Assembly: GCA_949285325.1 (NCBI GenBank)
Contig: CASDYZ010000007.1
Span: 82,657-146,656, forward strand
Source of the DNA: an uncultured bacterium
GTDB taxonomy: Bacteria > Bacillota_I > Bacilli_A > RFN20 > CAG-826
Length of the DNA stretch: 64,000 nucleotides
Direction: 5' to 3'
Below, piece by piece: positions 19,918 through 52,839 of this stretch. The number at the start of each line of letters is the position of its first letter. Within the stretch, counting starts at the first letter, position 1. Position numbers and translations under genes: made by a program. The notes under the pieces were generated by a model that saw only the letters and a list, made by a program, of their open reading frames with translations, was not told the origin of the DNA and ran no database searches.

Positions 19918-19923
19918 ATTTTT

Positions 19924-20003
19924 GCCATCGCGATGTGCAGTCACGAACCAGGTCAGGATAGGAATATAGCAGCCTTAAGTGTCCTGTTCATGTGCGGTGG
20001 TTT
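19924..20003 (+). ncRNA. ffs: Signal recognition particle RNA (small, 4.5S/scRNA type)
   Basis: Contains the invariant SRP domain IV sequence CCAGGUCAGG...GGAA...AGCAGCC. The 5' GCCAUCGC pairs with the 3' GCGGUGG to close a long imperfect hairpin. It sits directly upstream of tadA, as scr lies upstream of dnaX in B. subtilis. Confidence 0.75.
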
Positions 20004-20011
20004 ATTTGTGT

Positions 20012-29184: not shown

Positions 29185-31785
29185 CTAGTTTACCTTTCTC
29201 TTTTTAATTATGACTAATATAGACAATAACGTTATAGACGATATGGCAATAATTATTAATAAATAATTGATAGAATTATCAAACAAATTAATATCGTTAC
29301 TATTTTTAATGACTAACTCACCATTTAAGTATTCGATTGTTTTACCTTGGTTAATACACCACGCGTTAAGTCTTTCTCGCGCGGTTTTTATCACGTAGTC
29401 ATTAGATGTCATAAATATATTTTTCTCATCATTTGATAGATTATTTAAATAGTCTAAAGCGACATCTAATTTAGTTAAACACTGATTAGTGGTGTCTTCA
29501 TACATGATGTAATTACTTATATTTAAAGCGTTATCTTTACCTTCTATGGTTATATTTATACTTATAACATTTGAATAACTAGAAGAAGATGATGTATAGG
29601 CGTGTTTAAAATATTTATATCCACCTTGTGCAAGTGTCGATTGAGTACATTCTACCCAAACAATACCGTCTTTACTGACATAATTTGTATAATCTGTTCT
29701 AGTTGAACTAGTTCTTAAACTAACTTCAAAAGAAACAATATCCCCTTCATAAGGATTAACATTTTGGATATATCCTTCATCCTTACCAAAAGATAAATAT
29801 TGATTACTATAAATGTATGCATTTTGTACATAGTATGTACCGCCACCGATGGTGACATTACCAGTCGTCCTATTAGAACTAGATATTGATATATTAGTGT
29901 TGGTAAACGTGATATCAATTTCCTCATTTTGTGGTTGAACATATGCTTTTCTCGACACTGGTACATCGATAGAAGTAGTAAATTCATCATAAGTAATATC
30001 AAACTGTTTATAACTAACTACATCTCCGCCTTGAGTGTCTTCATATTTAAATTGATATTGATCATTTTCTAATACAAAATCAGTGATGATGTTACCTAAA
30101 TTATCTTTAACAGTTATATCATCTTTACTAATTACATCACCAACATAGAAATCCTTACTAATAGAGGCGTTAATCGACGTTATTTCTAAAGGAGTAGACT
30201 TATAATTAATCGTTATCGAATTTAAATTAATTGTCCCGCTTTTAGATTTAAAACCTAGATATTTATAATCTCCTTCTATATCTAAATGCGTTTCGTTTGT
30301 AGAAGATAACTCCCCTAAAAGTGTGCCCGTTGTAGAAGCGCTATATAAATTAGACGGAGAAGTATAAGCAGTATTACTGCCATATATTTGGATAGTGTCA
30401 CCACTTTCTTTCCAACTGACATCAACACTTTCTATTAAATTTGAATTACTTGTTATAATAATACCTGAATTATCACTTGATTTAATTTGTATGTCGTTAT
30501 TACCAGTATAAGATATACCTTTAAATGTTACCTTTGACTCAGTAGTGGTGTATTCCCATTCTTCATATCCGCTTCCTGTTATTTGATTTTTAAAATCAGA
30601 ACATTCTAAAGTGTCGCTTGTTATAGAAACACTTGTTTTAGGATTGACAACTATGTTGACACTGTCAGTGACACTGCTATCTAGCGTGGATACCACACTT
30701 ATGGTGGCGTTCCCCTCGCTCAAAGCATTAATATCCCCATTATTATTAACTGAGACAACATTAGGATTAGAACTACTCCAACTCACACTTTTCGACGCAT
30801 TAGATGGAGTGGTGGTAATTGATAAAGAATAAGTATCCCCAACTTCTAGATTTAAAGAAGGAGGATTTATTTGTATGTCTGTAGGAACAATATCTTCCCC
30901 ACCTATTGGTCCATCATACCAGTCTGACTCACCCCAAATTTGAGTGACATATTCTGGATGGTCGATATATGGATTTCTATTATTTTGTATCTCATATACA
31001 TTGTCATTTCTATTTAATTCCCAATCACTTACTGGATCTTGCAAATGCCATTTAACAAACAAATTAATAGAATAATCAGTCAAATAAAATCCATTTTGTG
31101 AAGTAGTAAAAATATATGACCCATCAGCTTGAGTAAAAGGCCAATTACCTCTATTTACCCATTTAGTTACCGCGTAAAAATATACTCTAGCTAAATCACC
31201 TTTCCATTCATCCGCTGGTTCGAATACTGTACTAGGTCCACTAGAATAGTAAGATGAACCTAATTTTGAATAACCATTATTTGATTCATAAGTAGAGTTT
31301 TCTACTTCTCCATATGGATAATTGCTTCTACTTTGATTAACTACGCTGTCGGTTGGATAGACGATAAATAAATCTGCCCCTTGGTTAGATTCACTACCGC
31401 CCCACCACGACTTAGGGATAGTGTGCTCTCTATTATAAGTATCGCCCTCGACTGAATGGCTACCCTTGTCTTGGTCAGTACCTGGAGTATAGTGAGTAGT
31501 GTTAGAATACATATCAACTATATATCCATTTTCATCGACATCGGTAGTTTTATAAGAATCCCAAAGATCGCTATAAGTGCCAATATCTGCCCCGTTATTT
31601 ATAATGGTGGATAACGAGTTAAATAAACTAGACGCACTAGTGTCATCCACTGATGAATAATAACTATCGACATTTGTCGCGTTTTTGACATTATTTATTA
31701 CGTTTGTATCTTGCTTAACATTTAAAAAAGTAAGAACTGACAAAGATAATAATGTCAATATTAATACACGTGACTTATTCTTCAT
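29185..31785 (-). CDS. Surface extracellular nuclease, Endonuclease I family domain plus Big_2 (Ig-like) domain, C-terminal TM anchor
   Basis: NREHTIPKSWWGG...GADLFIVYPTDSVVNQSRSNYPYGEV...LARVYFY Endonuclease I motifs. Big_2 signature GDTYSLSITTTPSNASKSVSWSSSNPNVVSVNNNGDINALSEGNATISV. C-terminal hydrophobic anchor. Confidence 0.7.
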   Translation of the reverse strand: MKNKSRVLILTLLSLSVLTFLNVKQDTNVINNVKNATNVDSYYSSVDDTSASSLFNSLSTIINNGADIGTYSDLWDSYKTTDVDENGYIVDMYSNTTHYTPGTDQDKGSHSVEGDTYNREHTIPKSWWGGSESNQGADLFIVYPTDSVVNQSRSNYPYGEVENSTYESNNGYSKLGSSYYSSGPSTVFEPADEWKGDLARVYFYAVTKWVNRGNWPFTQADGSYIFTTSQNGFYLTDYSINLFVKWHLQDPVSDWELNRNDNVYEIQNNRNPYIDHPEYVTQIWGESDWYDGPIGGEDIVPTDIQINPPSLNLEVGDTYSLSITTTPSNASKSVSWSSSNPNVVSVNNNGDINALSEGNATISVVSTLDSSVTDSVNIVVNPKTSVSITSDTLECSDFKNQITGSGYEEWEYTTTESKVTFKGISYTGNNDIQIKSSDNSGIIITSNSNLIESVDVSWKESGDTIQIYGSNTAYTSPSNLYSASTTGTLLGELSSTNETHLDIEGDYKYLGFKSKSGTINLNSITINYKSTPLEITSINASISKDFYVGDVISKDDITVKDNLGNIITDFVLENDQYQFKYEDTQGGDVVSYKQFDITYDEFTTSIDVPVSRKAYVQPQNEEIDITFTNTNISISSSNRTTGNVTIGGGTYYVQNAYIYSNQYLSFGKDEGYIQNVNPYEGDIVSFEVSLRTSSTRTDYTNYVSKDGIVWVECTQSTLAQGGYKYFKHAYTSSSSSYSNVISINITIEGKDNALNISNYIMYEDTTNQCLTKLDVALDYLNNLSNDEKNIFMTSNDYVIKTARERLNAWCINQGKTIEYLNGELVIKNSNDINLFDNSINYLLIIIAISSITLLSILVIIKKRKVN

Positions 31786-38480: not shown

Positions 38481-38839
38481 AAGTACACATAAATAATGAA
38501 TTTGACTTATTTTATAAGTGCTTTGTCTTTAGTTCTCCAACATCAAAAGAGAAATCTAAATTAATATCAACGCCGAACACAGGTAGATTAAAAATAGTAA
38601 AATTAATGGATGTACAGCCTTTAAGAACAAATTAAAGAATTTTATTAATAAAGTTTTAAAAAACAATTAAAAAGGTTAAAAAAATTCTCTGTATTGCAAT
38701 TATTATTGTAACCAAGAGAAAAAATTTAACCATAAATTAAAAAACAAAAAAACAAATTTATTAAAAAATATAGTGTTAAATCCCAAAGATGGAACTATTG
38801 TCAAAATTATATTTTTCTATAAACTTCAAATTTAATATT

Positions 38840-39244
38840 TTACTTAGATTCTTTATTATCAACACTAATTAAAAATATTTTTTTATCAAACGCACCTCGT
38901 TGATAAGCTTTTTCTTTTCTCATTTTTTCAAATTCATCATAAGTTAATCCTTTGGCGTTTATAATAGCAAGTATTATTTCTTCAATATCACATAGTTCCA
39001 TAATTGATTCGTCGCTTAAATATTCATCTAATTCTTCTTTTAATTTTGTATTAAGCGATTCTAAATATTCTTTATCATCAAGAATCCTACATTTGCATGT
39101 TTTATTATCTTTTTCAATGATTGAAGGAATTTTATCTCTGACTAACTTATTATAAATTTTTACAAACGGCTTGCCTCCTAAACTAAAATTTATTATAACA
39201 TTATAAAAGATAAAAAGATTATAAGAATGTATGGTGGACATCAA
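38840..39244 (-). CDS. MazG-like / HisE-like nucleoside triphosphate pyrophosphohydrolase
   Basis: KLVRDKIPSII motif plus acidic helical EE..E...EL.D.EE. This is characteristic of the all-alpha NTP-PPase (PRA-PH/MazG) superfamily. Confidence 0.55.
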   Translation of the reverse strand: MMSTIHSYNLFIFYNVIINFSLGGKPFVKIYNKLVRDKIPSIIEKDNKTCKCRILDDKEYLESLNTKLKEELDEYLSDESIMELCDIEEIILAIINAKGLTYDEFEKMRKEKAYQRGAFDKKIFLISVDNKESK

Positions 39245-39311: not shown

Positions 39312-40025
39312 ATGGGTTTATTAAGTAAAATAATTAGTTTATTTAAAAGAAATAAGAATCCAACAATTAATGGCAAAGTTGGAGAAGATTTAACTAATTT
39401 TCATTTAAATAATTGCAGTAGTGATTGTCCTATTCGCAAGGGAATAAATGATTTAATTCTTTTAGATGAGAACGGCATGAGTCATCAAATCGATCATGTT
39501 GAAATAAGAGAAAATGGTATATTTTGTATCGAGACAAAAAATTATGCTGGATGGATTTTTGGAAATGAAGAGTGCGAGTACTGGATTCAAAACTTTTACA
39601 ATAAAAATAAACGCAGATTATATAATCCTATAAAACAAAATAAAACACACTGCGACGTCATTAATAAAGTCATAGGGGATAAATATAAAATTAATTCACT
39701 CATAGTGATGACTAAAAACAACGCTGATAAGATTAAAAGCGAAAAAGTTATTAATTTAAATGAGCTAGTGATGCATTTAGAAATTTTTGATAACGGTGTT
39801 CATTTATCTAATGAAGAAATAATTGATATTTATAATAAGTTAGAGTCAGCAAGAAGTACGATAAACAAAAAGCAACACATAGATAATGTCAAAAAAGTTA
39901 AAAAAGCGTTGAATAAAAATATTTGTCCTATGTGTGGTGCCCAATTGATATTGAAAAAAGGAAAATTTGGTGAATTTTACAGTTGCGCTAATTTTCCTAA
40001 ATGTAGTTTTACTAAAGAAGCATGA
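39312..40025 (+). CDS. NERD (nuclease-related domain) protein with C-terminal topoisomerase-type zinc ribbon
   Basis: N-terminal NERD-like region (GEDLT..HL....DCPIRKGINDLILLDENGMSHQIDHVEI.E.GIFCIETKN). C-terminal CPMCGAQLILKKGKFGEFYSCANFPKCSFT zinc ribbon. Confidence 0.7.
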   Translation: MGLLSKIISLFKRNKNPTINGKVGEDLTNFHLNNCSSDCPIRKGINDLILLDENGMSHQIDHVEIRENGIFCIETKNYAGWIFGNEECEYWIQNFYNKNKRRLYNPIKQNKTHCDVINKVIGDKYKINSLIVMTKNNADKIKSEKVINLNELVMHLEIFDNGVHLSNEEIIDIYNKLESARSTINKKQHIDNVKKVKKALNKNICPMCGAQLILKKGKFGEFYSCANFPKCSFTKEA

Positions 40026-40070
40026 TGTGGCCCGTGCTATAATACAGTTCAGTTAAGGATAAAAGTATAT

Positions 40071-42146
40071 ATGGAACATAGTCTAAAAAGAACGCCCGGT
40101 AGAACATATTATGAATCTACAATAGAAGAATTTGTGTTAAATAAAAAACCTAGAGAAATAGTGGATTATTTAACAGAAAGTGATGAAGAGATGGATTTAA
40201 ATATTTTAAAATCTCAAAAGCACGCTTGGACTAATCAGATATCAATATTGCAAAAATATTTAAAAGATAAATCCGGTTATATTATTTTTGAATATGTTTT
40301 ATCCAGATTAAATATGAGGATAGATGTTGTACTTTTAATGGGTGATGTTGTCTATTCTTTAGAATTTAAAAATTTTGAAACAACATTTAAACCTGATGCG
40401 ATAGACCAAGCAGAAGGTTATGGATACGCACTTAAAAACTTTTATGAAGTGAATAGAGATAAATATGTCGTACCTATATTAATCGCGACAAAAGCGCCAG
40501 ACAGTATATGTTCTAATAAATCTGATTTAGGGATAGATAAACTGTTTACTCTTTTTAAAGCTAATATACATAAGATGGAGCAATACATTGAATTAATTAG
40601 ATCAAAATATGGTTCTACTACGATATATACTGAAGAGGATTTTAATAACTGGGTTAACTCACCTTTTAAACCTAATCCTTCAATCATACAAAGCGCTAGA
40701 TCAATATATATGAACAATCAAGTTGATGAGTTTTTTAAATTTGACGCTGGTGAAGAGAATTTAAAAGTAACTGAATCGACAGTGGAAGCTATTGTTAAAG
40801 ATGCGAGAGAAAACAAAAAGAAAATTATTTGTTTTGTTTCAGGTGTGCCAGGTGCAGGTAAAACATTAGTTGGTCTCGATTTAGCGGGTAAAACTAGAGA
40901 TGGTGTCAATGAAAAAACAATATTTTTCAGCGGTAATGGACCTCTTATTAACGTACTTACAGAAGCGCTTGGAAGAGATGCTTTTAAAAATAATCCCTTA
41001 AAATATCCTAATAAAAATCGTGCAGTTACTGATGTTAAAGCGTTTATACAAGACCTGCATGCTTTTAAACAAGATATCATCTCATCAAAAAATAAAACGA
41101 TAGAAGAAAATGTATTGATATTTGATGAAGCACAACGAGTTTGGGATGAAACTCAACTTGAGCAGTGGCTTAAAAAGAAAGGCGCAGATCCTAAATTTTA
41201 TGGTTTGTCAGAAGCCGATTTATTATTAAACACTTTCAACAACCGTTCATGGGGCGTCATCGTCGCCTTAGTAGGGTTAGGTCAAGACATACACAGAGGC
41301 GAAAATGGTTTAGGCGTATGGTTTAATTCACTTTTAAACAAACACAAAGAGTGGGAGATTAGATTGTCTGATGGTATATTTAGCCAAAACGCTGATGATT
41401 TAAGAGATTACATGGATGAATTAAAAAATAATAAAAGAGTAAAAGAGTGCCCAGGCTTATTTTTAAAAACATCGATAAGAACTCCCAGGGCTAAAAATTT
41501 ATCTGAATTTACTGAAGCATTATTGTTTAATAATCCCTCTAAAGCAAGACACGCTCTATCTAAATTTAACGATTATCCTATATGTATAACTAGGAATCTC
41601 GAGTTAGCTTTAAATTTTGTACAGTCTAATTCAGCTAGAAAAGAGAGAATAGGTAAACTCTGTAGCAGTAATAGCAAGATATTAGGTAAAAGAAGTCGTC
41701 AATTTGATAATATTGTCAATTTTAAATTTTCTAACTGGATGCTCGACGAAAATGGAGCGGATTGTTCAAATACACTAATATATGCGGCTACAGAATTTAA
41801 TATCCAAGGACTAGAGATAGATTGGTCACTTTTAGGTTGGGACATGGATATGTATTATTCTAATGGTGAGTGGTGTCAGCAGAAAATGTTGACCGCTAAA
41901 CGATTTAAAGAAAGTTCAGATATTGAGAAAAAACATATTTTAAATTCTTACCGTGTCCTACTTACAAGAGCGAGAAAAGGTATGGTTATATATATACCAA
42001 AAACAGACGAATATGAAGATGTCTATGGCACAAATAAATATTTAGATTCAACATATGATTATTTAAAGTCATGTGGTATTAAAGACATAGAAGAAGAAGC
42101 AACCATGTTTAATAAACAAATAGACGCTGTTAAGTTGCCTTTTTAG
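40071..42146 (+). CDS. DUF2075-family (Schlafen-like) P-loop ATPase/helicase with N-terminal restriction-endonuclease-like region
   Basis: Walker A FVSGVPGAGKTLVGLDL, Walker B LIFDEAQRVWDE and a C-terminal LLTRARKGMVIYIP SF1-like motif. The N-terminal ...IFEYVLSRLNMRIDVVLLMGDVVYSLEFKNFE resembles a PD-(D/E)xK module. Confidence 0.65.
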   Translation: MEHSLKRTPGRTYYESTIEEFVLNKKPREIVDYLTESDEEMDLNILKSQKHAWTNQISILQKYLKDKSGYIIFEYVLSRLNMRIDVVLLMGDVVYSLEFKNFETTFKPDAIDQAEGYGYALKNFYEVNRDKYVVPILIATKAPDSICSNKSDLGIDKLFTLFKANIHKMEQYIELIRSKYGSTTIYTEEDFNNWVNSPFKPNPSIIQSARSIYMNNQVDEFFKFDAGEENLKVTESTVEAIVKDARENKKKIICFVSGVPGAGKTLVGLDLAGKTRDGVNEKTIFFSGNGPLINVLTEALGRDAFKNNPLKYPNKNRAVTDVKAFIQDLHAFKQDIISSKNKTIEENVLIFDEAQRVWDETQLEQWLKKKGADPKFYGLSEADLLLNTFNNRSWGVIVALVGLGQDIHRGENGLGVWFNSLLNKHKEWEIRLSDGIFSQNADDLRDYMDELKNNKRVKECPGLFLKTSIRTPRAKNLSEFTEALLFNNPSKARHALSKFNDYPICITRNLELALNFVQSNSARKERIGKLCSSNSKILGKRSRQFDNIVNFKFSNWMLDENGADCSNTLIYAATEFNIQGLEIDWSLLGWDMDMYYSNGEWCQQKMLTAKRFKESSDIEKKHILNSYRVLLTRARKGMVIYIPKTDEYEDVYGTNKYLDSTYDYLKSCGIKDIEEEATMFNKQIDAVKLPF

Positions 42147-42242
42147 AGCATACGTATATTAATCAAACAATCTTTAAATCTTTTAAATAATAACTTTTTT
42201 CATTTACAATAATTAATAACGAAGAAAGAATAGTTAAATTAG

Positions 42243-45200
42243 ATGGCAACGATTAATGAACAAGTTGAAGAATATAGAGAAACAGAAGTTTTAAAATTGT
42301 ATAAAGAACATAAAGACGAGATTATTCGTGATTTAAATAGAGAAAAAAGTACAAAAGATGACTACAACGGTAGAGTAATTTTAGAATTGTTACAAAACGC
42401 TGTTGACCAAGCAATAGATGGTGAAACAGTAAAAATATTTATTAGTTTAGAAAACAATGAGTTAATTATTAAAAACACAGGCGAACCTTTTGATTTTGAA
42501 GGTGTAAAAAGTGTTATGAAATCCGATCATTCGCCAAAAGCTGAAGATCAAAACACTATCGGATATAAAGGGCTTGGGTTTCGTTCGGTAATAAACTGGT
42601 CTCATGATATTTCTATTTATAGTCACGATTTAAGCATTAGATTTTCTAACAATTTTAGAAAACAATATTTTGAAAAAAATGGAATATTAGACGAAACAGC
42701 GTTACTAGTAGCACCGCAAATAATAGAAAACATCGACCAAGACGGATATGACACAATTATCAAGATTAAAATTGATAACGAAACAAAAATAGAAGAAGTA
42801 AAATCACAACTTAACAATATCAATAAATATACTTTGTTGTTTTTAGACAATGTCGATGAATTATCTATTAAAATAGATAATAGAACTAAAAGATATCAAA
42901 GAAAAGAAAAAGAAGATGAAGTTACAATAATTGATGATGGAAATGAAAACAAATTCAACCTTTTCAAAAAAGAAGAAGAAATAAATGATAAAAAACATAA
43001 AATCGTGATTGCGTATGATCCGGCAATCGATTGTACAAAAAATAAACTTTATTCATATTTTGAAACGAACATTTCTCTTCCTATTAAATGGAAATGTCAT
43101 GTAACATTTGATTTAGAATCAAACAGAAAACATATTGTAGAAAGTGAAGACAATATAAATCTTTTTAAAACATTGATTTCTTTTATTTTAGAAAAAGCAC
43201 AAGAGTTGGCAGAAAAACAAAATCCTAGAACGTATGAATTTTTTGATAGTGTGTTACCAATAATTAAGGCAGAGCATTTATCTTTTGGAATAAATGACGC
43301 ATCACTAATAAGTTTTTTTAAAGATGAAATTGAAAACGCCAAGATTCTTCCAACATTACCAAACGGTTTAGTTTGTTTAAATGATCGACCAATATTTTAT
43401 GAGAATATTCCTGATTTTTTTAAAGATATAGAAAATGAAAAAATTTTATGTGAATCAAATGATAAAGATAGAAACGAAATTTTGAGCAAAATGCTACAAT
43501 ACAACGATTTTAATCCTATGGGCTTAAAAGAACAAATTAATAAAGTGAGTCATGAATATGACGCAAAAACAAATGTTGGCATTTATTTATGGTGGGAGGG
43601 CAAATATAGAAATAATAATAATTGTTTACCAAACGTTTTAAAAAATTCACATGGAGAGTTTATAGAAAAAGACACTAATGTTTATTTTGTGCATAGTAAT
43701 GAAGATTTTGATATTCCAACTTGGGCAAAAATTATCCAACTTGATAAAGAATATGAGCAAGAATTAAAAGAACAAACACAGAAGTTTTTCCCGCATATAT
43801 TTAAAAAAAATAAGGATTCAGTTGAAAGAATAATTGGGGCAAATTCTGGTAAATATCAAATATTATCTCATATCAATTTTCATGATTCTGATATTTCTAA
43901 CATAATTTCTCCTATAAATTCATCGGTAAAGAATGATTTTAAAAAAGCAAAAGAATTTGTTAAGTGGCTATGGAAACATTATTCAAATAGAGATGGGTGG
44001 GTACCACCAGATGAAATAAGATTTAATTTTCCATCAAATAACGAAACAGTTTGTAAAGCCAACGAATTATTTTTAGGACAAAATTATGACAATCCATTAG
44101 GTGATAAATTGTTTCAAGACAATAAATTTGAACCTTTGTTAGACTTTAAAAGACTTAATATAGAACAAGAACAAAAAGAAGATTTTATAAAATTTATTTT
44201 AAAATTTTCGGTAAATAAATTCCCAGTATTACAAAAAACAACTATCGAAGATAGTGATTTTAGAAAGCAATATTCAGAAGAGTGGATAAAAAATAAAATA
44301 TTAGAAATATATGAAAAAGACGAACCAAGATACATTGAATTAAAAAAAGTAGAAACCAACAATATCGAAAAATTAGAAACAATATTAGACAATCTTGAGG
44401 ATTATGAAATTTTTCAGTGGTTGTGTTTTGATGATAAAATCAAGCAAGAAATAGAATTGAAAAACAAAAATCAAATTACAGTTGATTATGATATAAGATC
44501 TTATACCCATAGAAACAATCAAATAATAGAAGATGATGAAAGAAGTTATATCAAATATATAATATCTAAAACTAAATGGATAAATATTGGTGGAGTAAAA
44601 CATGCACCTGTTGAGTGCGTATTTATTAATAAATATGATGTTAAACTAAATGAGTTGCTACATGTTATTGACGAAGAATATATTAAGAATATTTGTAACA
44701 AAGCAAATATTACAAAAGATACATTAAATAAGACAATTAAACATATCGGTATAGCGGAACGTATAAGCAATTTAAAATCCAATGATTTGTATGACTTCTT
44801 ATTAAAATTACCAAATTATGATAAACGGGGGATTATTTCCAAAAAACTATATAACGAATTTTGTGAGCCAGATAATACTATTGATATTACATATTCAGAA
44901 AATAAACAAAGATTTTTTCAAGAAGGACAAGTTTACACTTATAACAGAGATGGTGAAAGTTTTCATCTTGCGTCTGACACATATTTTACTAATAGCATGA
45001 TGATAAATTTAAAGAACAAATATATTATTTTCACTCCAAATAGAAAAGGAAGCTTTGAAACATTTAAAAATGTATTTGGTGTTCAAAAATTTGAAGAAAA
45101 TGTTTCCGTAGTTGAAGGAAGTGAAACAATAAGTCAGCACAATAAAAGTTTCCAAGAAGATTTTAAAGATTTTGTTAAATATGCGAGACATTGGAAAATA

Positions 45201-46685
45201 AAAAATGAAAAACTAGGAGAAGAAATAGATAAGATAACAGTTAAACTTATCACACAAATTAGTTTAGAGGAAAACGGAAAGACCATGATATTCAAAGATA
45301 AATATATCCCAATTTTTAATGGTAAAACATGGTACATAGTAGTGGACGATAGCGATGATGTGAATGATCTTAATATAAGAGAATGCATTGAAAATATTTG
45401 TGGAAAAATTGGAAACACGGAGAATGAGACAATTTTGCGTGAGTTAGGTGAAGTTTATGAAAACAAAAATAATAGATTACAACGTACCGAGAAGTATTTA
45501 GGAGAACCAATATCGATAGAAGACACTGTAATTGAAAACGAGATACGTAAGTCATTTGCAAAAATATTAAATTTAAAATACGAAGATGACGATTTGAAAG
45601 GTATTGATTTTGACAATATTGAATCTTTAGAAGTAGCAGAGTCAATATTTAAACTTTTGAAAAGGCATAATAAAAGCATAAAAGAATTGCGACGAGATAA
45701 TTTTAAGTACATCGATAAAATTAAATTTGAAAACTATTTTCAAAACATGATAAAAAATTTCATCGACACCAATGAAGACAAATACAAGAATTCATTATTT
45801 GTGTCTTATAAAGATAAAGATAGAAAAGACCAAGAACAATTTTTAGATAAGGTTGATGAATTTAAACATTTTTCTCCTGACTTTGACGCAACAAAATTTG
45901 ACATAGATTTTGACGCACAAAAATTAGTTACAAAACATTTTTCAATCATAGGCGATGAGATAGACGCTGAAGCGGACGAAGAATACGAAAACAATTTCAA
46001 AGAATATTTTAGTGATTTATATAATAATGATGAATTTAAAGACTTTCTCATTAGAAACAAAAATTATAAATCTTTAATTTATTTTATTAATGACACCAGT
46101 GGAGATATCGTAGATGAAATTAAAAATAAATATAACGGTCAAAAACAATTAAGTTTAGAGGATATCTACCCTTCAATCAGCGGAGAACAAAATCGCGCTA
46201 TAGATGATTTTATAGTGACAAAGAGTAAGTTTGAACCTAACATCACATCAACAAACAAAGGCGCAAATTCAAAAGAACATGTGAAAACATCTAATGAAAT
46301 TGAAAGAGAAAATCGTAAGAAAAGGAAAAGTGGAAAACAAGCAGAAGAAATAGTATACAATTCTTTAAAGGACCGTATACCTTCTTTAAAATGGACTTCA
46401 GAAAGTTCGTCTTGTGCAAGTCAAAGAGGAAATTCACAAAAATACGATATGGAATATATCAAAGATGGAGAGAAACACTATATAGAAGTCAAGGCGGGCG
46501 TCACATCTTTTTATATGTCTAGAAGTGAATATGATTTTTCACAAGAGAATAAAGATGTCTATGAAATATATTTAGTTGATTCAGACGCTACAAAAATAGA
46601 TGGCCCACACACGATAGGTGAATTTGAAGGCGCGAAAGAAGTTAATGAATATATCTTTAATTTTAAAAAAGTTACTGACAATTAA
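42243..46685 (+). CDS. Giant sacsin/HSP90-like GHKL ATPase with C-terminal DUF3883 (restriction-endonuclease-like) domain
   Basis: Bergerat-fold N-box ILELLQNAVDQA and G2 box IGYKGLGFRSVINWS at the N-terminus. A C-terminal DUF3883-like block (GKQAEEIVYNSLKDRIPSLKWTSE...KYDMEYIKDGEKHYIEVKAG...YEIYLV) closes the 1480 aa protein. Confidence 0.65.
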   Translation: MATINEQVEEYRETEVLKLYKEHKDEIIRDLNREKSTKDDYNGRVILELLQNAVDQAIDGETVKIFISLENNELIIKNTGEPFDFEGVKSVMKSDHSPKAEDQNTIGYKGLGFRSVINWSHDISIYSHDLSIRFSNNFRKQYFEKNGILDETALLVAPQIIENIDQDGYDTIIKIKIDNETKIEEVKSQLNNINKYTLLFLDNVDELSIKIDNRTKRYQRKEKEDEVTIIDDGNENKFNLFKKEEEINDKKHKIVIAYDPAIDCTKNKLYSYFETNISLPIKWKCHVTFDLESNRKHIVESEDNINLFKTLISFILEKAQELAEKQNPRTYEFFDSVLPIIKAEHLSFGINDASLISFFKDEIENAKILPTLPNGLVCLNDRPIFYENIPDFFKDIENEKILCESNDKDRNEILSKMLQYNDFNPMGLKEQINKVSHEYDAKTNVGIYLWWEGKYRNNNNCLPNVLKNSHGEFIEKDTNVYFVHSNEDFDIPTWAKIIQLDKEYEQELKEQTQKFFPHIFKKNKDSVERIIGANSGKYQILSHINFHDSDISNIISPINSSVKNDFKKAKEFVKWLWKHYSNRDGWVPPDEIRFNFPSNNETVCKANELFLGQNYDNPLGDKLFQDNKFEPLLDFKRLNIEQEQKEDFIKFILKFSVNKFPVLQKTTIEDSDFRKQYSEEWIKNKILEIYEKDEPRYIELKKVETNNIEKLETILDNLEDYEIFQWLCFDDKIKQEIELKNKNQITVDYDIRSYTHRNNQIIEDDERSYIKYIISKTKWINIGGVKHAPVECVFINKYDVKLNELLHVIDEEYIKNICNKANITKDTLNKTIKHIGIAERISNLKSNDLYDFLLKLPNYDKRGIISKKLYNEFCEPDNTIDITYSENKQRFFQEGQVYTYNRDGESFHLASDTYFTNSMMINLKNKYIIFTPNRKGSFETFKNVFGVQKFEENVSVVEGSETISQHNKSFQEDFKDFVKYARHWKIKNEKLGEEIDKITVKLITQISLEENGKTMIFKDKYIPIFNGKTWYIVVDDSDDVNDLNIRECIENICGKIGNTENETILRELGEVYENKNNRLQRTEKYLGEPISIEDTVIENEIRKSFAKILNLKYEDDDLKGIDFDNIESLEVAESIFKLLKRHNKSIKELRRDNFKYIDKIKFENYFQNMIKNFIDTNEDKYKNSLFVSYKDKDRKDQEQFLDKVDEFKHFSPDFDATKFDIDFDAQKLVTKHFSIIGDEIDAEADEEYENNFKEYFSDLYNNDEFKDFLIRNKNYKSLIYFINDTSGDIVDEIKNKYNGQKQLSLEDIYPSISGEQNRAIDDFIVTKSKFEPNITSTNKGANSKEHVKTSNEIERENRKKRKSGKQAEEIVYNSLKDRIPSLKWTSESSSCASQRGNSQKYDMEYIKDGEKHYIEVKAGVTSFYMSRSEYDFSQENKDVYEIYLVDSDATKIDGPHTIGEFEGAKEVNEYIFNFKKVTDN

Positions 46686-46831
46686 TTATTAATTCAACAT
46701 CATTTTTATAAAAATCAAAGCAAAACGAGCATATTTAATATATATTTACATTAATATTTGATTAATTTAATTAGTTTTGCTATGTGTGTAAACAATGGAC
46801 TTTAAAATAAAAATATTTGATAATTGTATTT

Positions 46832-49800
46832 ATGAAACATTTCTTGCTTTTGATAGATATAGACCATCTTGCTGTTTCTAATAATTTTAATAAAAGCATG
46901 TTTGATTTTGTTTTTAATCGTGGCGGTTTTCATCTTGCAAATTCTCTTACCGCCAGCAAGAATAAAAAGCTTTTTGGTGAATATAAAAATATAGATGATA
47001 ATTTTAATGAATTTGAACCAGTGATAGAGAGTTGTTATTTTGATTTATGGCAAGGTAGATTTAAGAATCTAATCATATCTTTTTATGATGTGACAAATAG
47101 TCTTAATTATGGTCTAGTTAAATATAACATTAAAACTAAGATGTTTGAGTTATATTATGTGAATAAAGATAGAGATAAGTTTATTGAGAACAATGATGTT
47201 GATGATATTTTAGATAAAGATTTAAGTGATAAGATTATCGATTATGTCTCGTCTTTAGATGTAGAGACACTAGGTGAATTGTCTAGCAATGTTTATGTGT
47301 CAAAAGAAAATAAACTATTGATTATTGATCAATCTAAAATAAGTGAAAACACTAAAACGATACTTAATGTAATGTTATCTAATAAATTAAATACGACAAA
47401 CATCATCAATATTAAAAATGTCGCGGTGGATATTGAAGATTTAAATAATCCACTATACGTATATGTTGAATTTGAATGCAAAGATAAAAAATATGAGTAT
47501 TGGTTTTATGATGAGGAATTAAAAGATATCGATGTATTAGATTATGGTGAAATTAAAGATACTTGGCTAGATATATTTATCAACAAAGCAGAAGAAGAAT
47601 TTATAAGACAAAATAAAAAGATTCTTATAGATGTTTTAAATAAGAAAAACAAAGATGATGCGTTTAATGTGTTATCTAAATTATATAAAAAATTTAAACT
47701 TGTTAAATGTGACGATGGATATGGATATATAGAACTAAATAGCGACCCCTTTATATATTTAGACGACGATAATGTCAAAATCAAAACTAGTAGAAATATC
47801 GATGACGATAGTTATGTTGTGTTTGATTATATAAACATCATAGACAATAAAAATGAAATTAAGAAAGTAATCGATAGATATATATCAAGTAAGCCAAAAG
47901 AATACGATACATTTATAAAGGAAGTAGATGAATTTATAAATAACATATACGACCTAGATACATCAAAACAAATTGCGTTAAAGTTATTAGAAAAAGCTAA
48001 TAATTTATCGCCGTACGATAAAACGACAACGATATATGAAAAAGCATATCAACAACTTAAAAATAAGTATAATCAATTGATCAATGTCAATAAAACTAAA
48101 GTCAGCAATTGTTTAACGTTGTTAAATAAAATAGTGGATATCAATACGTATAACACCTATTGTGATGCATTTAACGATGCAGTGGAAGAGTGTAGTGAAG
48201 GTGAATTAAGCGCTTTTAAAAATGAATACGATGATTTTTTAAATAAGTATGGATATATATCAAATTATCCATCGACACACACTGTATATAGAAGAGTGTT
48301 TATAAGAAAAAGTGTGCTAGAAGATTTAAAAAAACTAGATATTGAAAATAAGGGATTAAAAATATTGTCGGTGATGGATGATATCGTCGATAATTTAAAG
48401 ACACTGCCAGGTAATGAACTTGGTAAATATTTATTAAATAAAGGTTTAAATTTTCCAATTAAAAATGATAGGTCGATTAAAAAGATAAGGATACTTAGAA
48501 ACGCAAAATATAGATTGTTATTTGTCTATGGTTCTGATTTAAATGATGTAGAAAGAAATACTAATTCCAACAGCGTTTATATCTTTGCCCTAACTATGCA
48601 TAAAAAGGACAGCGGTGAACTATATACACTAGCAAAAACAAAACCAAACAAATATAAAATTAATGATTTTATTATCTATCCAAAAAACAAATTGATTAAA
48701 ATACCAGAATGTACATCTAAACAGTATGAGATTGCCTCTAGTTATAAAAATAGACCACTCGTCACTTTTGGGTGTGCGGGAAGTGGGAAAACGACTGTGT
48801 CCATCGAACAATATGTCAATATTGTATATAACAACTTCAACTGCGCTTCACCTAAGGTAGATGAACTTGTCTATATAACATTTCATAAAGGTTTATCAGA
48901 CAAAGTTAAAAAAGATTTACTAGAATTTCACATCGATGGTAATTGTTATAAATTAGATGAATATTTTGCTTATGTAGTGGGGGAAGAATATAACAAAGCA
49001 CAAATCATCGATGAACATGTCTTTGTCAGTTGGTTTAATAAAACATATTCAAAAAGTGAGATTAAAAAGAATAAGTCAAAAAAGAAAAATAAAATAAGCC
49101 CACTTTTAAATAAGCCAGATATTGCAAGATTAATTTATACATATTACCGTGGAGTATTTAAAGGTAGCAAAGAACTTTATAATTCAAAAGACAATTATCT
49201 AGATAAAGATACATTTATGTTGGAGATGAGTGGTGAGACTTATCTAAGTGATGAAGAGAAAAACGCCATATATTTGTTTTGTTTAGAATTTAATGACTAC
49301 GCTTTTAAAAACAATTTATTAAGCGACAATGACTACGCACTTAAAGTTATAAGACAATCGTCATTTGATATTAAAAAAACAAACTGCATCATCATCGATG
49401 AGGTGCAAGATTTAACTGAGATTGAAACAATCGCGACCATTTTAACTCTTAACGATGACAGTGCGAGGATATATTTTTATGGCGATCCTCATCAAAGTAT
49501 TAATCCAAATGTATTTGATAGTTCGACTATCAATAGGGTTTATACCGCTTTAGGTAAATCGACATCGAGTGAAAACGCTCCTCTTACTATCACTTATAGG
49601 ACTAATAAGCATCTAATTAAATATTTAAATCAACTTCTTAAATACCGTGATAAGTGGATAGGGGCCACTAAAGAAGAACTATCGCAGATAGAAGAGCCGC
49701 CTATAATGGATGAAGATACTTCTTGGGCGGGGTACGTCACTAATAAAGAGTTATATAACAAAATATTTATCACTAATCCTAGGAGTATGATTATTACCCC

Positions 49801-50605
49801 AAGTGAAGAGATAAGAGAAAAATTATTAGATAAATATAAACAGATAGATAAAGAACGTGTCATCACTATATACGACGCGAAAGGGATGGAGTGGGACACG
49901 ATTATCATGTACAACATCTTCAGCGATTATAAGACATATTTTTTAGACATGATTTTAGAAAACGGGTGTGCGAAGAAAAGTACAATTCATAGGATGACGT
50001 TTAATAAATATTATGTTGGTTGTACAAGGAGTACGAAAAGCTTTGTCATCGTCGAAGAAGATGAAGACATATTTAAAAAAGATAATCCGATTTTTAAAAC
50101 GTTATTATCTTCTTTTGCCCCTATTTCAAAAAAAGAACAAATCGATACTTATATATTAGAAGATAATACTTTTGATGCGTGGTATAAAGAGGCAGTGCAA
50201 AACTTAAGTAACGACAATACATCGACATTTGAACACGCTTTAAAACATGCGAGAAGTCTAGCTAAAACAAATGAAGAAATTAGGATGGTCAATAGTCTAA
50301 TCGACGGCACACCTGAACATCTTGAAAGAAGCGCATTTAAATATCTTGAAGAAGGTGAATATGATTTATCACTAAGTACATTTATCAAATGTAATAAAAT
50401 AAATAAACGATATGGCCCATATATCATATTATGCGCGCTTCTATGTGGTAGAAATATAACTGATGAACATTTAAAAGAAATATTAAAACATCAAGAATTA
50501 TTTGATAAATATCCTTCTGCCCTACCTAAACTTATGACACAGAAAGTATTTATAAATAAATTGACGACATTATCTAATAGATTATTTAACAAGGAGGAAA
50601 AATGA
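46832..50605 (+). CDS. UvrD/Rep-like superfamily 1 helicase with long N-terminal extension containing a RelE/ParE-like segment
   Basis: Walker A VTFGCAGSGKTTVS, Walker B IIDEVQDLT, motif IV-like TYRTNKHLI and motif VI-like YYVGCTRSTKSFVIV. Upstream of the P-loop, KIRILRNAKYRLLFVYGSD...VYIFALTMHKKD resembles the RelE/ParE toxin fold. Alternative start at 46817. Confidence 0.7.
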   Translation: MKHFLLLIDIDHLAVSNNFNKSMFDFVFNRGGFHLANSLTASKNKKLFGEYKNIDDNFNEFEPVIESCYFDLWQGRFKNLIISFYDVTNSLNYGLVKYNIKTKMFELYYVNKDRDKFIENNDVDDILDKDLSDKIIDYVSSLDVETLGELSSNVYVSKENKLLIIDQSKISENTKTILNVMLSNKLNTTNIINIKNVAVDIEDLNNPLYVYVEFECKDKKYEYWFYDEELKDIDVLDYGEIKDTWLDIFINKAEEEFIRQNKKILIDVLNKKNKDDAFNVLSKLYKKFKLVKCDDGYGYIELNSDPFIYLDDDNVKIKTSRNIDDDSYVVFDYINIIDNKNEIKKVIDRYISSKPKEYDTFIKEVDEFINNIYDLDTSKQIALKLLEKANNLSPYDKTTTIYEKAYQQLKNKYNQLINVNKTKVSNCLTLLNKIVDINTYNTYCDAFNDAVEECSEGELSAFKNEYDDFLNKYGYISNYPSTHTVYRRVFIRKSVLEDLKKLDIENKGLKILSVMDDIVDNLKTLPGNELGKYLLNKGLNFPIKNDRSIKKIRILRNAKYRLLFVYGSDLNDVERNTNSNSVYIFALTMHKKDSGELYTLAKTKPNKYKINDFIIYPKNKLIKIPECTSKQYEIASSYKNRPLVTFGCAGSGKTTVSIEQYVNIVYNNFNCASPKVDELVYITFHKGLSDKVKKDLLEFHIDGNCYKLDEYFAYVVGEEYNKAQIIDEHVFVSWFNKTYSKSEIKKNKSKKKNKISPLLNKPDIARLIYTYYRGVFKGSKELYNSKDNYLDKDTFMLEMSGETYLSDEEKNAIYLFCLEFNDYAFKNNLLSDNDYALKVIRQSSFDIKKTNCIIIDEVQDLTEIETIATILTLNDDSARIYFYGDPHQSINPNVFDSSTINRVYTALGKSTSSENAPLTITYRTNKHLIKYLNQLLKYRDKWIGATKEELSQIEEPPIMDEDTSWAGYVTNKELYNKIFITNPRSMIITPSEEIREKLLDKYKQIDKERVITIYDAKGMEWDTIIMYNIFSDYKTYFLDMILENGCAKKSTIHRMTFNKYYVGCTRSTKSFVIVEEDEDIFKKDNPIFKTLLSSFAPISKKEQIDTYILEDNTFDAWYKEAVQNLSNDNTSTFEHALKHARSLAKTNEEIRMVNSLIDGTPEHLERSAFKYLEEGEYDLSLSTFIKCNKINKRYGPYIILCALLCGRNITDEHLKEILKHQELFDKYPSALPKLMTQKVFINKLTTLSNRLFNKEEK

Positions 50606-51150
50606 TGGAAGAAGAAAATAAACTTACTGTAGAGGAAATGAGATCGCTTATATCTATATCTACTCTCTTACCAGCTTTGCTTGATAAAATTATGTCTATC
50701 CATAAAGATATTGAAGAACTTAAAAAAGAATTTAAAGACATGAAAGACAAATTTAACAACAACACATCCGCGGTTTTGTCATACAAAGATGAAGTTGATG
50801 ACATGATTAAGAAAAACAATATTAAAAGTGAATTAGATGACATCAAACAAAATATTTTAAAGATTGAAAATAGTGTTTTAAATATGACTAAAAGTTCAAC
50901 CAAAAATAAAAGCGATGATAAAACAAAAATAGTCAGTGAAGAAAAAGAAGAAGATGATGATGAAATCAAATCGATGGCGGACAAAATCTTAATGGATCAC
51001 AAAGGCCGTAAATCGAGGCTTTTAACAGTCATCGATATTAAAAAAGCATTTAAGGTAGACGATAAAAAAGCAAGAGAAGTCATACAATATTTTATTGATA
51101 AAAAGATGTATGATGAACAGATGCGCATATTAAAATTCCCTAAAAAATAG
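50602..51150 (+). CDS. Small acidic coiled-coil protein, translationally coupled to the upstream helicase
   Basis: 182 aa, Glu/Asp/Lys-rich with heptad-like periodicity. ATGATGG overlaps the helicase stop. A possible winged-helix-like C-terminus is inference only. Confidence 0.45.
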   Translation: MMEEENKLTVEEMRSLISISTLLPALLDKIMSIHKDIEELKKEFKDMKDKFNNNTSAVLSYKDEVDDMIKKNNIKSELDDIKQNILKIENSVLNMTKSSTKNKSDDKTKIVSEEKEEDDDEIKSMADKILMDHKGRKSRLLTVIDIKKAFKVDDKKAREVIQYFIDKKMYDEQMRILKFPKK

Positions 51151-51171
51151 TAGAAGTGGCACAATATAAAT

Positions 51172-52083
51172 ATGCGTTATTTATTTTTTGACATTGAATG
51201 TGCTGATGGGATGTTTGCCATATGTGAATTTGGTTATGTCATATGCGACGAGAATTTTAAAATAACTCATAAGAGAAATATATTAATTAATCCCAGGAGT
51301 AAATTTAGATTAACAAATAGAAAGAAGTCTAAAGATTTAGCTCTTACTTACCCTATAGAAGAATATATTAAACATAATGAATTTAATGAATTTTATGACA
51401 ACATCAAATTTTTATTGACGCAGAAGAACATAAAGATATTTGGATACGCGGTTAATAACGATATTAGTTTTTTGTTTAGAGACACTCTTCGATACAATTT
51501 AAAATTGTTTGATTTTAGTTGTTACGATGTACAAAAGATGCTTAATATATTTTCAAGCAACAACAACGCATCAACATCTTTAGAAAAAGCATATACAAAT
51601 TTAGTAAAAGATAAAGTAGACATTAAACATCACCACGCGCTTTGCGACGCATATAAGAGTATGCTTATCTTTAAAGCAATGGTGGAGGCACTAGACACGA
51701 GTGTCGAGCAGTTTATCTCGCTTTGCTCGTCTTCATTTATAAACGCTTTATCGAGTTGGAATAAAACGCAAAAGAATGAACAAAATAAAAGGCAGAAGAG
51801 AAAATGGGATAAATTTGTATCAAGTTATAAAAATAAAATCGATAACGATAAAACAATTTATGTCAGTGATTTAATTTATTTAAATGATAAGCAGTTTGAA
51901 GTTATAACAAAATATATTAAAGATAATAATTTAATACCAACTAAATCGATAAGTGCTTGTTACCTCGTGTTCTTAGATGAAAAAGAGAAGAACAAGAGAC
52001 TTATAAAGATAAAAGAATTTATAAAAGGTGAAATATTAATCTATCAAGATATATTAAATAAAATGAAAAGTAACAATAAGTAA
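51172..52083 (+). CDS. DEDDh-family 3'-5' exonuclease (DnaQ-like)
   Basis: Exo I motif FFDIEC, Exo II GYAVNNDISFL and Exo III HHALCDAYKS (the H-x4-D of DEDDh). It starts 21 nt after the upstream gene. Confidence 0.7.
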   Translation: MRYLFFDIECADGMFAICEFGYVICDENFKITHKRNILINPRSKFRLTNRKKSKDLALTYPIEEYIKHNEFNEFYDNIKFLLTQKNIKIFGYAVNNDISFLFRDTLRYNLKLFDFSCYDVQKMLNIFSSNNNASTSLEKAYTNLVKDKVDIKHHHALCDAYKSMLIFKAMVEALDTSVEQFISLCSSSFINALSSWNKTQKNEQNKRQKRKWDKFVSSYKNKIDNDKTIYVSDLIYLNDKQFEVITKYIKDNNLIPTKSISACYLVFLDEKEKNKRLIKIKEFIKGEILIYQDILNKMKSNNK

Positions 52084-52134: not shown

Positions 52135-52839
52135 ATGGAATTTAAAGACAAACTTAAAAAATTAAGAACAGAAAATGGTTTGACACAAGAAGCGTTAGCA
52201 GAAGCGATACACGTCTCTAGAAGTGCGATAGCAAAATATGAAAATGGTAATGGTTATCCATCTAAAGAGACGCTAGAGTCTCTTGCTTATTATTTTGGTG
52301 TTGATATAAGTGAATTAGAAAGCGACGAGATAATTGTCAAAAGAAAGAAAAAGAAAAACATCATTAAAATCATATTAATTGTATTCTCAAGTATCATTGG
52401 GGCAATCGGTCTAGGTTTAGCGGGATTCGCCATTTATTTTGAACTCAACAAACTACCAACTGGCGGGATGGTAGAATTTAATGCCTCAAAAATAGGTTTA
52501 AATGCCTGTAAAGAAATGAGAGAAATTACTTTACATGGACATACATTTACTTACTACAACGTTAAATCTAACGAAAAAGGTGAATGGATCTTGGTGGATG
52601 AGACATCGCATATAATTAACACTGACATCATCTTTGGCTTTAGACTAAAAAGTGGTGATAAAGTATCAATCAATGGATATTATAACGACGAAGCAGAAAT
52701 TTATAATAATGTATCTAAAGCGTATCCTGGATACACTGATTATTCGATAAGAGATTATGGATTTATCATTGAAGTAAAAGATGACACTGAGGTGCCACCT
52801 GAAGGGATAAATTTAGGAATAATGATGCATTGGTGTTAA
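52135..52839 (+). CDS. Membrane-anchored XRE-family HTH transcriptional regulator
   Basis: N-terminal Cro/C1 HTH (LRTENGLTQEALAEAIHVSRSAIAKYENG), a single TM helix (IIKIILIVFSSIIGAIGLGLAGFAIYF) and a roughly 130-aa C-terminal extracytoplasmic domain. Confidence 0.7.
   Translation: MEFKDKLKKLRTENGLTQEALAEAIHVSRSAIAKYENGNGYPSKETLESLAYYFGVDISELESDEIIVKRKKKKNIIKIILIVFSSIIGAIGLGLAGFAIYFELNKLPTGGMVEFNASKIGLNACKEMREITLHGHTFTYYNVKSNEKGEWILVDETSHIINTDIIFGFRLKSGDKVSINGYYNDEAEIYNNVSKAYPGYTDYSIRDYGFIIEVKDDTEVPPEGINLGIMMHWC

What the first reader, a model, noticed from the sequence alone, without database searches (positions are those of the whole stretch)
39312..46685. NERD protein, DUF2075 (Schlafen-like) ATPase and 1480-aa sacsin-type GHKL ATPase fused to DUF3883
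Three co-directional genes are separated by short gaps of 45 and 96 nt. The second carries a P-loop (GVPGAGKT) and DEAQ box in a DUF2075/Schlafen-helicase-like core behind a PD-(D/E)xK-like N-terminal region. The third has a sacsin/HSP90-type Bergerat ATPase head (ELLQNAVDQA; GYKGLGFRSV). Its G1 box reads KNTGEP rather than DNGxG, which is deviant and may mean altered or absent ATPase activity. It ends in a DUF3883 restriction-endonuclease-fold domain. Over 1000 residues in between have no obvious domain. GHKL and DUF3883 proteins are repeatedly found in conflict systems but are functionally uncharacterised. The pairing with a DUF2075 ATPase and a NERD nuclease suggests a multi-component system.
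Basis: partly seen in the sequence, partly recalled or inferred. Interest (0 to 1): 0.68.

Follow-up and report, generated by a model that had tools for sequence, protein, structure and literature searches.

The report
Three separate nuclease defence genes, side by side
The three genes are real and their domains were read correctly. They are three independent neighbours in an anti-phage defence island rather than one system, and the largest is a divergent copy of the already named single-gene system Tiamat (TmtA).

Summary
Three co-directional ORFs lie at 39312-40025, 40071-42146 and 42243-46685, with gaps of 45 and 96 nt, and every quoted motif is present.

- **Gene 3** is a full-length match to PADLOC's TmtA profile (Tiamat, 753 bits). 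It has a sacsin-type GHKL ATPase plus transducer head, a roughly 1000-residue family-specific middle and a C-terminal DUF3883 PD-(D/E)xK nuclease.
- **Gene 2** is a full-length member of PADLOC candidate PDC-S41 (603 bits). It is a PD-(D/E)xK nuclease fused to a DUF2075 SF1 helicase, the same architecture as Nhi.
- **Gene 1** is a widespread NERD nuclease with a Top1-type zinc ribbon.

The "multi-component system" reading is not supported. In about 90 other TmtA loci, one has a DUF2075 neighbour and one has a NERD neighbour of a different subfamily. No neighbour family recurs in more than 8 of 83 loci. Among 19 non-redundant loci of close DUF2075 homologues, none has TmtA and one has the NERD gene.

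The "deviant" G1 box (NTGxPF) is the consensus of the whole TmtA family.

Verdict: a new, divergent member of known kinds, sitting in a defence island. Interest is low.

The parts
39312..40025 (+). Stand-alone NERD nuclease with a C-terminal Top1-type C4 zinc ribbon (237 aa). NERD covers aa 21-134 and the zinc ribbon aa 203-236.
   Evidence: Pfam NERD 78.3 bits and Zn_ribbon_Top1 53.2 bits. There are 341 homologues at E<=1e-10, about 50% identical, all with the same two domains. Alignment A4 has invariant E25, D61, E74, K76 and Cys205/208/225/231.
40071..42146 (+). PDC-S41 nuclease-helicase (691 aa). The N-terminal PD-(D/E)xK domain is at about aa 60-136 (E74, D85, E98, K100). The DUF2075/Schlafen-group-3 SF1 helicase core is at aa 253-643 (Walker A 258-265, DEAQ 352-355).
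   Evidence: PADLOC PDC-S41 602.6 bits over aa 11-674, profile positions 3-654 of 657. Pfam SLFN-g3_helicase 203.7 bits, with a sub-threshold NERD hit of 17.6 bits at aa 60-136. The nuclease and helicase motifs are conserved in a 33%-identical homologue. More than 7600 homologues at E<=1e-10.
42243..46685 (+). TmtA, the single protein of the Tiamat defence system (1480 aa).
   Evidence: PADLOC TmtA PDLC03964 752.9 bits over aa 3-1458, profile positions 8-1510 of 1538. The nearest relatives are only about 42% identical.
42360..43217 (+). TmtA head, aa ~40-325: sacsin-type Bergerat (GHKL) ATPase domain plus transducer domain.
43230..46322 (+). TmtA central region, aa 330-1360: mixed alpha/beta scaffold specific to this family, with no recognisable catalytic motif.
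46332..46595 (+). TmtA tail, aa 1364-1451: DUF3883/NOV_C PD-(D/E)xK nuclease domain (D1402, E1415, K1417).

Best explanation
Window 39.3-46.7 kb is part of a defence island in a low-GC Bacilli-type metagenome-assembled genome. It holds three independent, self-contained nuclease-based genes, not one system.

(1) TmtA (Tiamat) is a single-protein system. Inferred mechanism: the N-terminal GHKL plus transducer module works as a nucleotide-driven conformational or dimerisation switch, as in MutL, GyrB, MORC and Hsp90. The ~1000-residue family-specific middle is the sensor and scaffold. The switch licenses the C-terminal DUF3883 PD-(D/E)xK nuclease to cut DNA during infection.

(2) The PDC-S41 protein is a one-polypeptide nuclease-helicase with the Nhi architecture. 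By analogy with Nhi, it would unwind and degrade phage DNA.

(3) The NERD-zinc-ribbon protein is a small stand-alone DNA-binding nuclease of unknown role, found in defence islands and in housekeeping neighbourhoods alike.

Shown here: the domain identities, the intact catalytic motifs, family membership and the lack of conserved linkage. Inferred: all enzymatic activities, the order of events and the anti-phage role of this particular copy.
For: - **Family membership.** Full-length, high-scoring matches to single-gene defence profiles: TmtA 753 bits and PDC-S41 603 bits.
- **TmtA neighbourhoods.** The closest TmtA homologues (39-42% identical) sit next to unrelated defence genes. These are type IIG RM/GmrSD/HEPN, an AAA/radical-SAM cluster, a UvrD helicase and MerR, and NERD/GmrSD/type I RM. 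Of 80 TmtA loci from different species, one has a DUF2075 homologue, none has a confirmed NERD neighbour and none has the downstream helicase.
- **Wider screens.** A NERD HMM built from two subfamilies finds NERD in only 2 of about 95 TmtA loci, and one of those is the window's own contig. All-against-all clustering of ORFs within 6 kb of TmtA gives no family present in more than 8 of 83 loci.
- **DUF2075 neighbourhoods.** Among 19 non-redundant loci of DUF2075 homologues at least 66% identical, none has TmtA and one (L097) has the NERD gene, downstream rather than upstream.
- **NERD neighbourhoods.** The NERD homologue occurs in housekeeping neighbourhoods as well as in defence islands.
- **Divergence.** The three genes differ in distance from their nearest known relatives: 76%, 56% and 42% identity.
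- **Literature.** Tiamat is described as a single-gene PD-(D/E)xK system. Nhi and Nhi-like proteins are single proteins with an N-terminal nuclease plus DUF2075.
Against: - The three genes are co-directional with short gaps, and no terminator-like hairpin lies between them. Co-transcription cannot be excluded.
- The order DUF2075 then TmtA recurs once, in a distant Alistipes MAG (L018).
- The NERD gene abuts the same DUF2075 subfamily in L097, with a 23-nt overlap. It lies near DUF2075 or UvrD helicases in L115 and L116.
- A NERD gene of another subfamily directly follows a 41%-identical TmtA in L145.
- Only five contexts of the window's own TmtA clade could be examined.
- No experiment was done on this copy. 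PDC-S41 is an untested candidate, and Tiamat's mechanism is listed as unknown.
Confidence: 0.8

Rival explanations
1. NERD, the DUF2075 ATPase and the GHKL-DUF3883 protein are subunits of one three-gene defence system and depend on one another.
For: The genes share a strand, have gaps of 45 and 96 nt and show no terminator-like site between them. There is one further DUF2075-then-TmtA locus (L018) and one TmtA-then-NERD locus (L145).
Against: The trio occurs nowhere else in about 90 TmtA loci, 19 DUF2075 loci and 15 NERD loci. TmtA has no conserved neighbour. Genes 2 and 3 each match a single-gene defence profile over their full length. The NERD in L145 belongs to a different subfamily (30% identity over 94 aa, no zinc ribbon) and lies on the other side of TmtA.
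Confidence: 0.06
2. The NERD-zinc-ribbon nuclease and the PDC-S41 nuclease-helicase form an optional two-gene module, with the small nuclease working alongside an SF1 helicase. TmtA is an unrelated neighbour.
For: The same two subfamilies are adjacent in L097, with overlapping stop and start. NERD homologues lie beside a UvrD-Zn-ribbon helicase and near a DUF2075 protein in L115, and near a UvrD helicase in L116. Helicases are therefore close by in 4 of 6 genomic contexts examined.
Against: Eighteen of 19 loci of close DUF2075 homologues lack NERD. Gene order is reversed between the two cases. NERD homologues also sit alone among purA/groEL or PAP2/HAD genes. None of 9 viral-contig NERD loci has a DUF2075 gene. 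The DUF2075 protein already carries its own intact nuclease domain.
Confidence: 0.1
3. One or more of the genes is not a defence gene at all. For example, the NERD protein or the DUF2075 helicase could serve DNA repair or recombination and only happen to lie in a variable region.
For: NERD-zinc-ribbon homologues occur in conserved housekeeping neighbourhoods. A DUF2075 homologue on a Bacillus thuringiensis plasmid sits among metabolic genes. PDC-S41 is untested.
Against: Most contexts of the close DUF2075 homologues are variable clusters of nucleases, Fic, HNH, MazG-like, GmrSD and other helicases. PDC-S41 was nominated because members are embedded in BREX, DISARM or type I RM systems. TmtA homologues lie next to RM systems, GmrSD and integrases.
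Confidence: 0.1

Closest known systems
Tiamat (TmtA), a single-gene anti-phage system attributed to Millman et al. 2022 (PADLOC PDLC03964)
   Same: End-to-end profile match (753 bits). Same length class (1450-1640 aa). Same three-part build: GHKL head, family-specific middle, DUF3883 nuclease tail. No conserved partner gene. Located among other defence genes.
   Different: A divergent copy, at most 42% identical to any protein in the 5.8-billion-sequence collection. It comes from a low-GC Bacilli-type MAG. The activity of this copy is untested.
PADLOC phage defence candidate PDC-S41
   Same: Full-length match (603 bits, profile positions 3-654 of 657).
   Different: None detected. PDC families are predictions by 'guilt-by-embedding' and have not been tested.
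Nhi (Staphylococcus epidermidis SERP2475) and the 'Nhi-like' protein of Millman et al.
   Same: Same architecture: an N-terminal PD-(D/E)xK nuclease followed by a DUF2075 SF1 helicase in a single protein, acting alone.
   Different: Only a marginal match to PADLOC's Nhi profile (19 bits, restricted to the P-loop region). It is therefore an analogue in build, not a member of that family.
Sacsin SR1 / Hsp90-like and MutL/GyrB/MORC GHKL ATPase modules. The plant protein NO VEIN gives DUF3883 its Pfam name, NOV_C.
   Different: The adenine-contacting Asp of the DxGxG G1 box is Asn (N78) throughout the TmtA family. The head is fused to a nuclease rather than to chaperone, topoisomerase or mismatch-repair modules. 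Any relationship of the middle region to NO VEIN was not tested, because the AlphaFold database library was unavailable.
NERD domain proteins (Pfam PF08378)
   Same: Full-length NERD match with the D...ExK motif intact.
   Different: This subfamily carries a Top1-type C4 zinc ribbon and is a 237-aa stand-alone protein, not a NERD-UvrD fusion.

Membership tests
Tiamat (TmtA) | Full-length match to a TmtA profile | tested here: met
   PADLOC PDLC03964 752.9 bits, aa 3-1458 against profile positions 8-1510 of 1538. Five further TmtA profiles also match.
Tiamat (TmtA) | N-terminal GHKL-type ATPase domain | tested here: met
   [not shown]
Tiamat (TmtA) | C-terminal DUF3883 PD-(D/E)xK nuclease with catalytic D...ExK | tested here: met
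   [not shown]
Tiamat (TmtA) | Single-gene system with no obligatory partner | tested here: met
   No neighbour family occurs in more than 8 of 83 loci. The literature describes Tiamat as single-gene.
Tiamat (TmtA) | Protects against phage | not testable with these tools
   This needs a phage-challenge assay of this copy.
PDC-S41 (PADLOC candidate) | Full-length match to the PDC-S41 profile | tested here: met
   602.6 bits, aa 11-674 against profile positions 3-654 of 657.
Nhi | N-terminal PD-(D/E)xK nuclease plus DUF2075 SF1 helicase in one protein | tested here: met
   E74, D85, E98 and K100 motif. SLFN-g3_helicase 204 bits at aa 253-643. The motif is conserved at 33% identity.
Nhi | Sequence membership, meaning a match to the Nhi profile over its length | tested here: not met
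   Only 19.2 bits, aa 241-369 against profile positions 190-286 of 470.
Canonical GHKL ATPase | N-box ExxxNxxD and a G2 glycine-rich lid | tested here: met
   E48, N52, D55 and G107-x-K-G-x-G-F-R are invariant in 26- and 60-sequence alignments.
Canonical GHKL ATPase | G1 box DxGxG with the adenine-binding Asp | tested here: not met
   The window has K-N78-T-G80-E-P-F. The family pattern is xN[TN]Gx[PVA]F. The HtpG alignment places its Asp opposite N78.
NERD (PF08378) | Domain match with an intact D...ExK | tested here: met
   78.3 bits. D61, E74 and K76 are invariant in A4.
Hypothetical NERD + DUF2075 + GHKL-DUF3883 three-gene system | The genes recur together in other genomes | tested here: not met
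   The trio was never seen again. Pairs were seen once each among about 90 TmtA loci, 19 DUF2075 loci and 15 NERD loci.

The most novel reading that the evidence does not exclude
The sporadic but repeated adjacencies may reflect real cooperation between otherwise autonomous modules. The adjacencies are DUF2075 then TmtA in two phyla, NERD-zinc-ribbon abutting the same DUF2075 subfamily twice, and a NERD gene directly after a related TmtA. One form this could take is a small NERD nuclease acting in trans with SF1 nuclease-helicases or with TmtA, so that the window would hold a lineage-specific composite system.
Probability: 0.1. Interest if true: 0.5.

Novelty: new member of a known kind. Interest (0 to 1): 0.22.

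Why it matters
There is little new biology here. The locus adds a divergent Tiamat homologue (at most 42% identical to anything else on record), a PDC-S41 member and a NERD-zinc-ribbon gene to the defence-gene catalogue of an uncultured low-GC Bacilli lineage.

Three by-products are useful for anyone studying Tiamat, whose mechanism is still listed as unknown:

- The head is a two-domain GHKL plus transducer module. Every catalytic residue is invariant except the adenine-binding Asp, which is Asn family-wide.
- The ~1000-residue middle folds confidently but has no solved structural relative, and it never occurs outside this architecture.
- Across about 90 loci TmtA has no conserved partner gene.

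Tried and rejected
- **Three-gene system.** Rejected on neighbourhood evidence.
- **Dead ATPase.** Rejected as a special property of this copy. The G1 deviation is the family consensus and all other GHKL catalytic positions are invariant.
- **Mobile-element borders.** No tRNA genes, no integrase within the window near the region and no convincing flanking direct repeats.
- **Operon signals.** The promoter and terminator scan is uninformative in this AT-rich DNA: 77 promoter-like sites against 98 expected, and no terminator in the gaps.
- **GC3 differences between the genes.** Too small to argue for separate origins.
- **PDB sequence searches.** These gave only marginal HtpG and sacsin hits for TmtA and nothing for the DUF2075 protein.
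- **Plasmid searches.** These added no informative neighbourhoods.
- **Unavailable or unproductive resources.** The AlphaFold-database fold library was not available. The first literature search was wasted on unrelated 'TMTA' and 'tiamatea' hits. No paper mentions PDC-S41 by name.
Full report
**1. What is there**

The + strand carries three ORFs exactly as described: 39312-40025 (237 aa), 40071-42146 (691 aa) and 42243-46685 (1480 aa). They are separated by 45 and 96 nt. All quoted motifs are present.

The window is identical to part of a 235-kb scaffold of a metagenome assembly (ENA ERZ16268174) and to a Logan contig. The closest named relatives of gene 2 come from Acholeplasmatales and Bacilli MAGs. 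The stretch from about 38 to 53 kb has 26-30% G+C, against 30-37% in the flanking housekeeping genes (tldD/pmbA, L31, metG and an RNA methyltransferase).

**2. Identity of each gene**

- **Gene 1** scores NERD 78 bits plus Zn_ribbon_Top1 53 bits. It belongs to a compact family of 237-aa proteins about 50% identical to it (341 at E<=1e-10). E25, D61, E74, K76 and four zinc-ribbon cysteines are invariant.
- **Gene 2** matches PADLOC's PDC-S41 end to end at 603 bits, and Pfam SLFN-g3_helicase (DUF2075) at 204 bits. Its N-terminus has E74, D85 and E98-x-K100, a sub-threshold NERD-like hit. This motif is conserved in a 33%-identical homologue.
- **Gene 2 compared with Nhi.** The build (nuclease plus DUF2075 helicase in one protein) is that of Nhi and of the "Nhi-like" protein of Millman et al.. 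The Nhi profile itself is barely matched, at 19 bits.
- **PDC families** are untested candidates nominated by "guilt-by-embedding".
- **Gene 3** matches PADLOC TmtA (Tiamat) over its whole length at 753 bits. The literature lists Tiamat among the systems of Millman et al. 2022, describes it as a single-gene PD-(D/E)xK system, and gives its mechanism as unknown.

**3. Anatomy of TmtA**

*Head*
- It scores 74 bits against NCBIfam's sacsin N-terminal ATP-binding-like domain.
- When the N-terminal 400 aa are scanned alone, it passes the Pfam HATPase_c_3 cut-off (29.4 against 25 bits).
- An AlphaFold2 model of aa 1-760 built on 60 homologues is confident (pLDDT 88).
- E48, N52, D55, G80, F83, K99, the G2 box G107-K109-G110-G112-F113-R114, and R295 in the transducer are invariant.

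*G1 box*
- KNTGEP is not a peculiarity of this copy. N78 is at least 90% conserved, and the family pattern is xN[TN]Gx[PVA]F.
- The HtpG alignment places the adenine-binding Asp opposite N78.
- The deviation is therefore real but family-wide. It points to non-canonical nucleotide recognition rather than to a decayed copy. Whether sacsin-type domains bind ATP canonically is itself debated.

*Tail*
- Aa 1364-1451 is DUF3883/NOV_C, a PD-(D/E)xK family.

*Middle*
- Aa 330-1360 folds confidently.
- It has no Pfam family and no convincing solved-structure match.
- Searched against 1.84 billion representatives, it finds 253 proteins. Nearly all are 1450-1640 aa long and match at the same position. 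The middle region is therefore exclusive to this architecture.

**4. One system or three neighbours?**

*TmtA loci*
- The closest relatives (39-42% identical) sit next to type IIG RM/GmrSD/HEPN, an AAA/radical-SAM cluster, a UvrD helicase and MerR, and NERD/GmrSD/type I RM.
- Of 80 loci from different species with 10-kb flanks, one (L018, an Alistipes MAG) has a DUF2075 homologue. None has the window's NERD or its downstream helicase.
- Extra DUF2075 queries add nothing.
- A NERD HMM spanning two subfamilies finds NERD in only 2 of about 95 TmtA loci: the window's own contig and L145.
- Clustering all ORFs within 6 kb of TmtA gives no family present in more than 8 of 83 loci.

*DUF2075 loci*
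- Among 19 non-redundant loci of homologues at least 66% identical, none has TmtA.
- One (L097) has the NERD-zinc-ribbon gene. There it lies downstream and overlaps the DUF2075 stop codon.

*NERD loci*
- Two contexts are plain housekeeping.
- Two are defence islands with UvrD or DUF2075 helicases nearby.
- None of nine viral-contig loci has a partner.

*Reading*
- The three genes also differ in distance from their nearest relatives: 76%, 56% and 42% identity.
- An obligate multi-gene system would show its components together in most loci. Here the trio is unique and each pair was seen once elsewhere.
- This is what co-residence in defence islands produces.

**5. Residual doubt**

- The genes may be co-transcribed. 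No terminator-like site lies in the gaps, and the scan is uninformative in AT-rich DNA.
- The recurrences in L018, L097, L115 and L145 could reflect optional cooperation. I give about 0.1 to a NERD-DUF2075 module and about 0.06 to a three-gene system.

**6. Mechanism (inferred)**

- **TmtA.** A nucleotide-driven GHKL switch gates a C-terminal restriction-fold nuclease, and the large family-specific middle provides target sensing. The domains and conserved residues are shown. All the activities are inferred from what is established for MutL, GyrB, MORC and Hsp90 ATPases and for PD-(D/E)xK nucleases.
- **PDC-S41.** A nuclease-helicase acting on phage DNA, by analogy with Nhi.
- **NERD-zinc ribbon.** A small DNA-binding nuclease whose role is unknown.

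**7. Verdict**

These are new, divergent members of known kinds sitting side by side in a defence island. Interest is low.

Noticed in passing
window 46817-52083 (+): A tight gene set lies directly downstream of TmtA. The first gene encodes a 1262-aa protein (the gene caller starts it at 46832, giving 1257 aa). Its first ~630 aa match no family, and aa 636-1035 are a UvrD-type SF1 helicase core (GCAGSGKT 652-659). Its stop overlaps by 4 nt the start of a 182-aa coiled-coil ORF. A 303-aa DEDDh-exonuclease-like ORF follows after 21 nt. PADLOC gives only weak GajB (29 bits) and DEDDh (27 bits) matches. No homologue lies near any other TmtA locus. It may be a separate, undescribed helicase-exonuclease defence module.
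   Followed up: partly
window 59069-62167 (+): A 1032-aa Upf1-like helicase (AAA_11/AAA_12) fused to DUF2726, another defence-type nuclease-helicase. A similar 897-aa gene lies two genes downstream of a close DUF2075 homologue in L091.
   Followed up: no
window 26853-29183 (-), 29185-31785 (-), 57540-58919 (+): Three Endonuclease_1 proteins with Ig-like or lamin-tail domains lie in one 64-kb window. A similar Endonuclease_1/Big_2 protein lies just upstream of a DUF2075 homologue in L089.
   Followed up: no
window 52135-52839 (+): An HTH_3 (Xre/RstR-like) regulator with a predicted membrane-spanning segment closes the co-directional block of defence-type genes.
   Followed up: no
window 38840-39244 (-) and the 359-nt AT-rich spacer 38481-38839: A 134-aa ORF on the opposite strand, at the upstream edge of the island, matches no family. 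One homologue (79 bits) lies about 7 kb downstream of a TmtA homologue in Metabacillus (L034).
   Followed up: no
L018 803-7872 (Alistipes MAG): This is the only other locus with the order DUF2075 then TmtA on one strand. Its proteins are 33% and 26% identical to the window's. A PLD-type restriction-endonuclease-like gene follows.
   Followed up: yes
L097 4992-9669; L091 4059-10085: Two different DUF2075 genes (617-628 aa and 694 aa) occur in the same island. They are adjacent in L097, where the NERD-zinc-ribbon gene overlaps the second one by 23 nt and a Fic gene follows.
   Followed up: partly
L145 165-5380: A 41%-identical TmtA is followed after 51 nt by a 254-aa NERD protein of a different subfamily (no zinc ribbon, 30% identity over 94 aa). 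GmrSD and a type I RM system come next.
   Followed up: yes
[not shown]
   Followed up: yes
TmtA aa 1-400 (window 42243-43442): A technical point. The full-length Pfam scan did not list HATPase_c_3 and reported only a sub-threshold HATPase_c hit. The same N-terminus scanned alone passes the HATPase_c_3 cut-off.
   Followed up: yes
window 19917-20013 (+): Bacterial small SRP RNA, 60.5 bits. It is the only Rfam family in the window. No tRNA genes were found in 64 kb.
   Followed up: no
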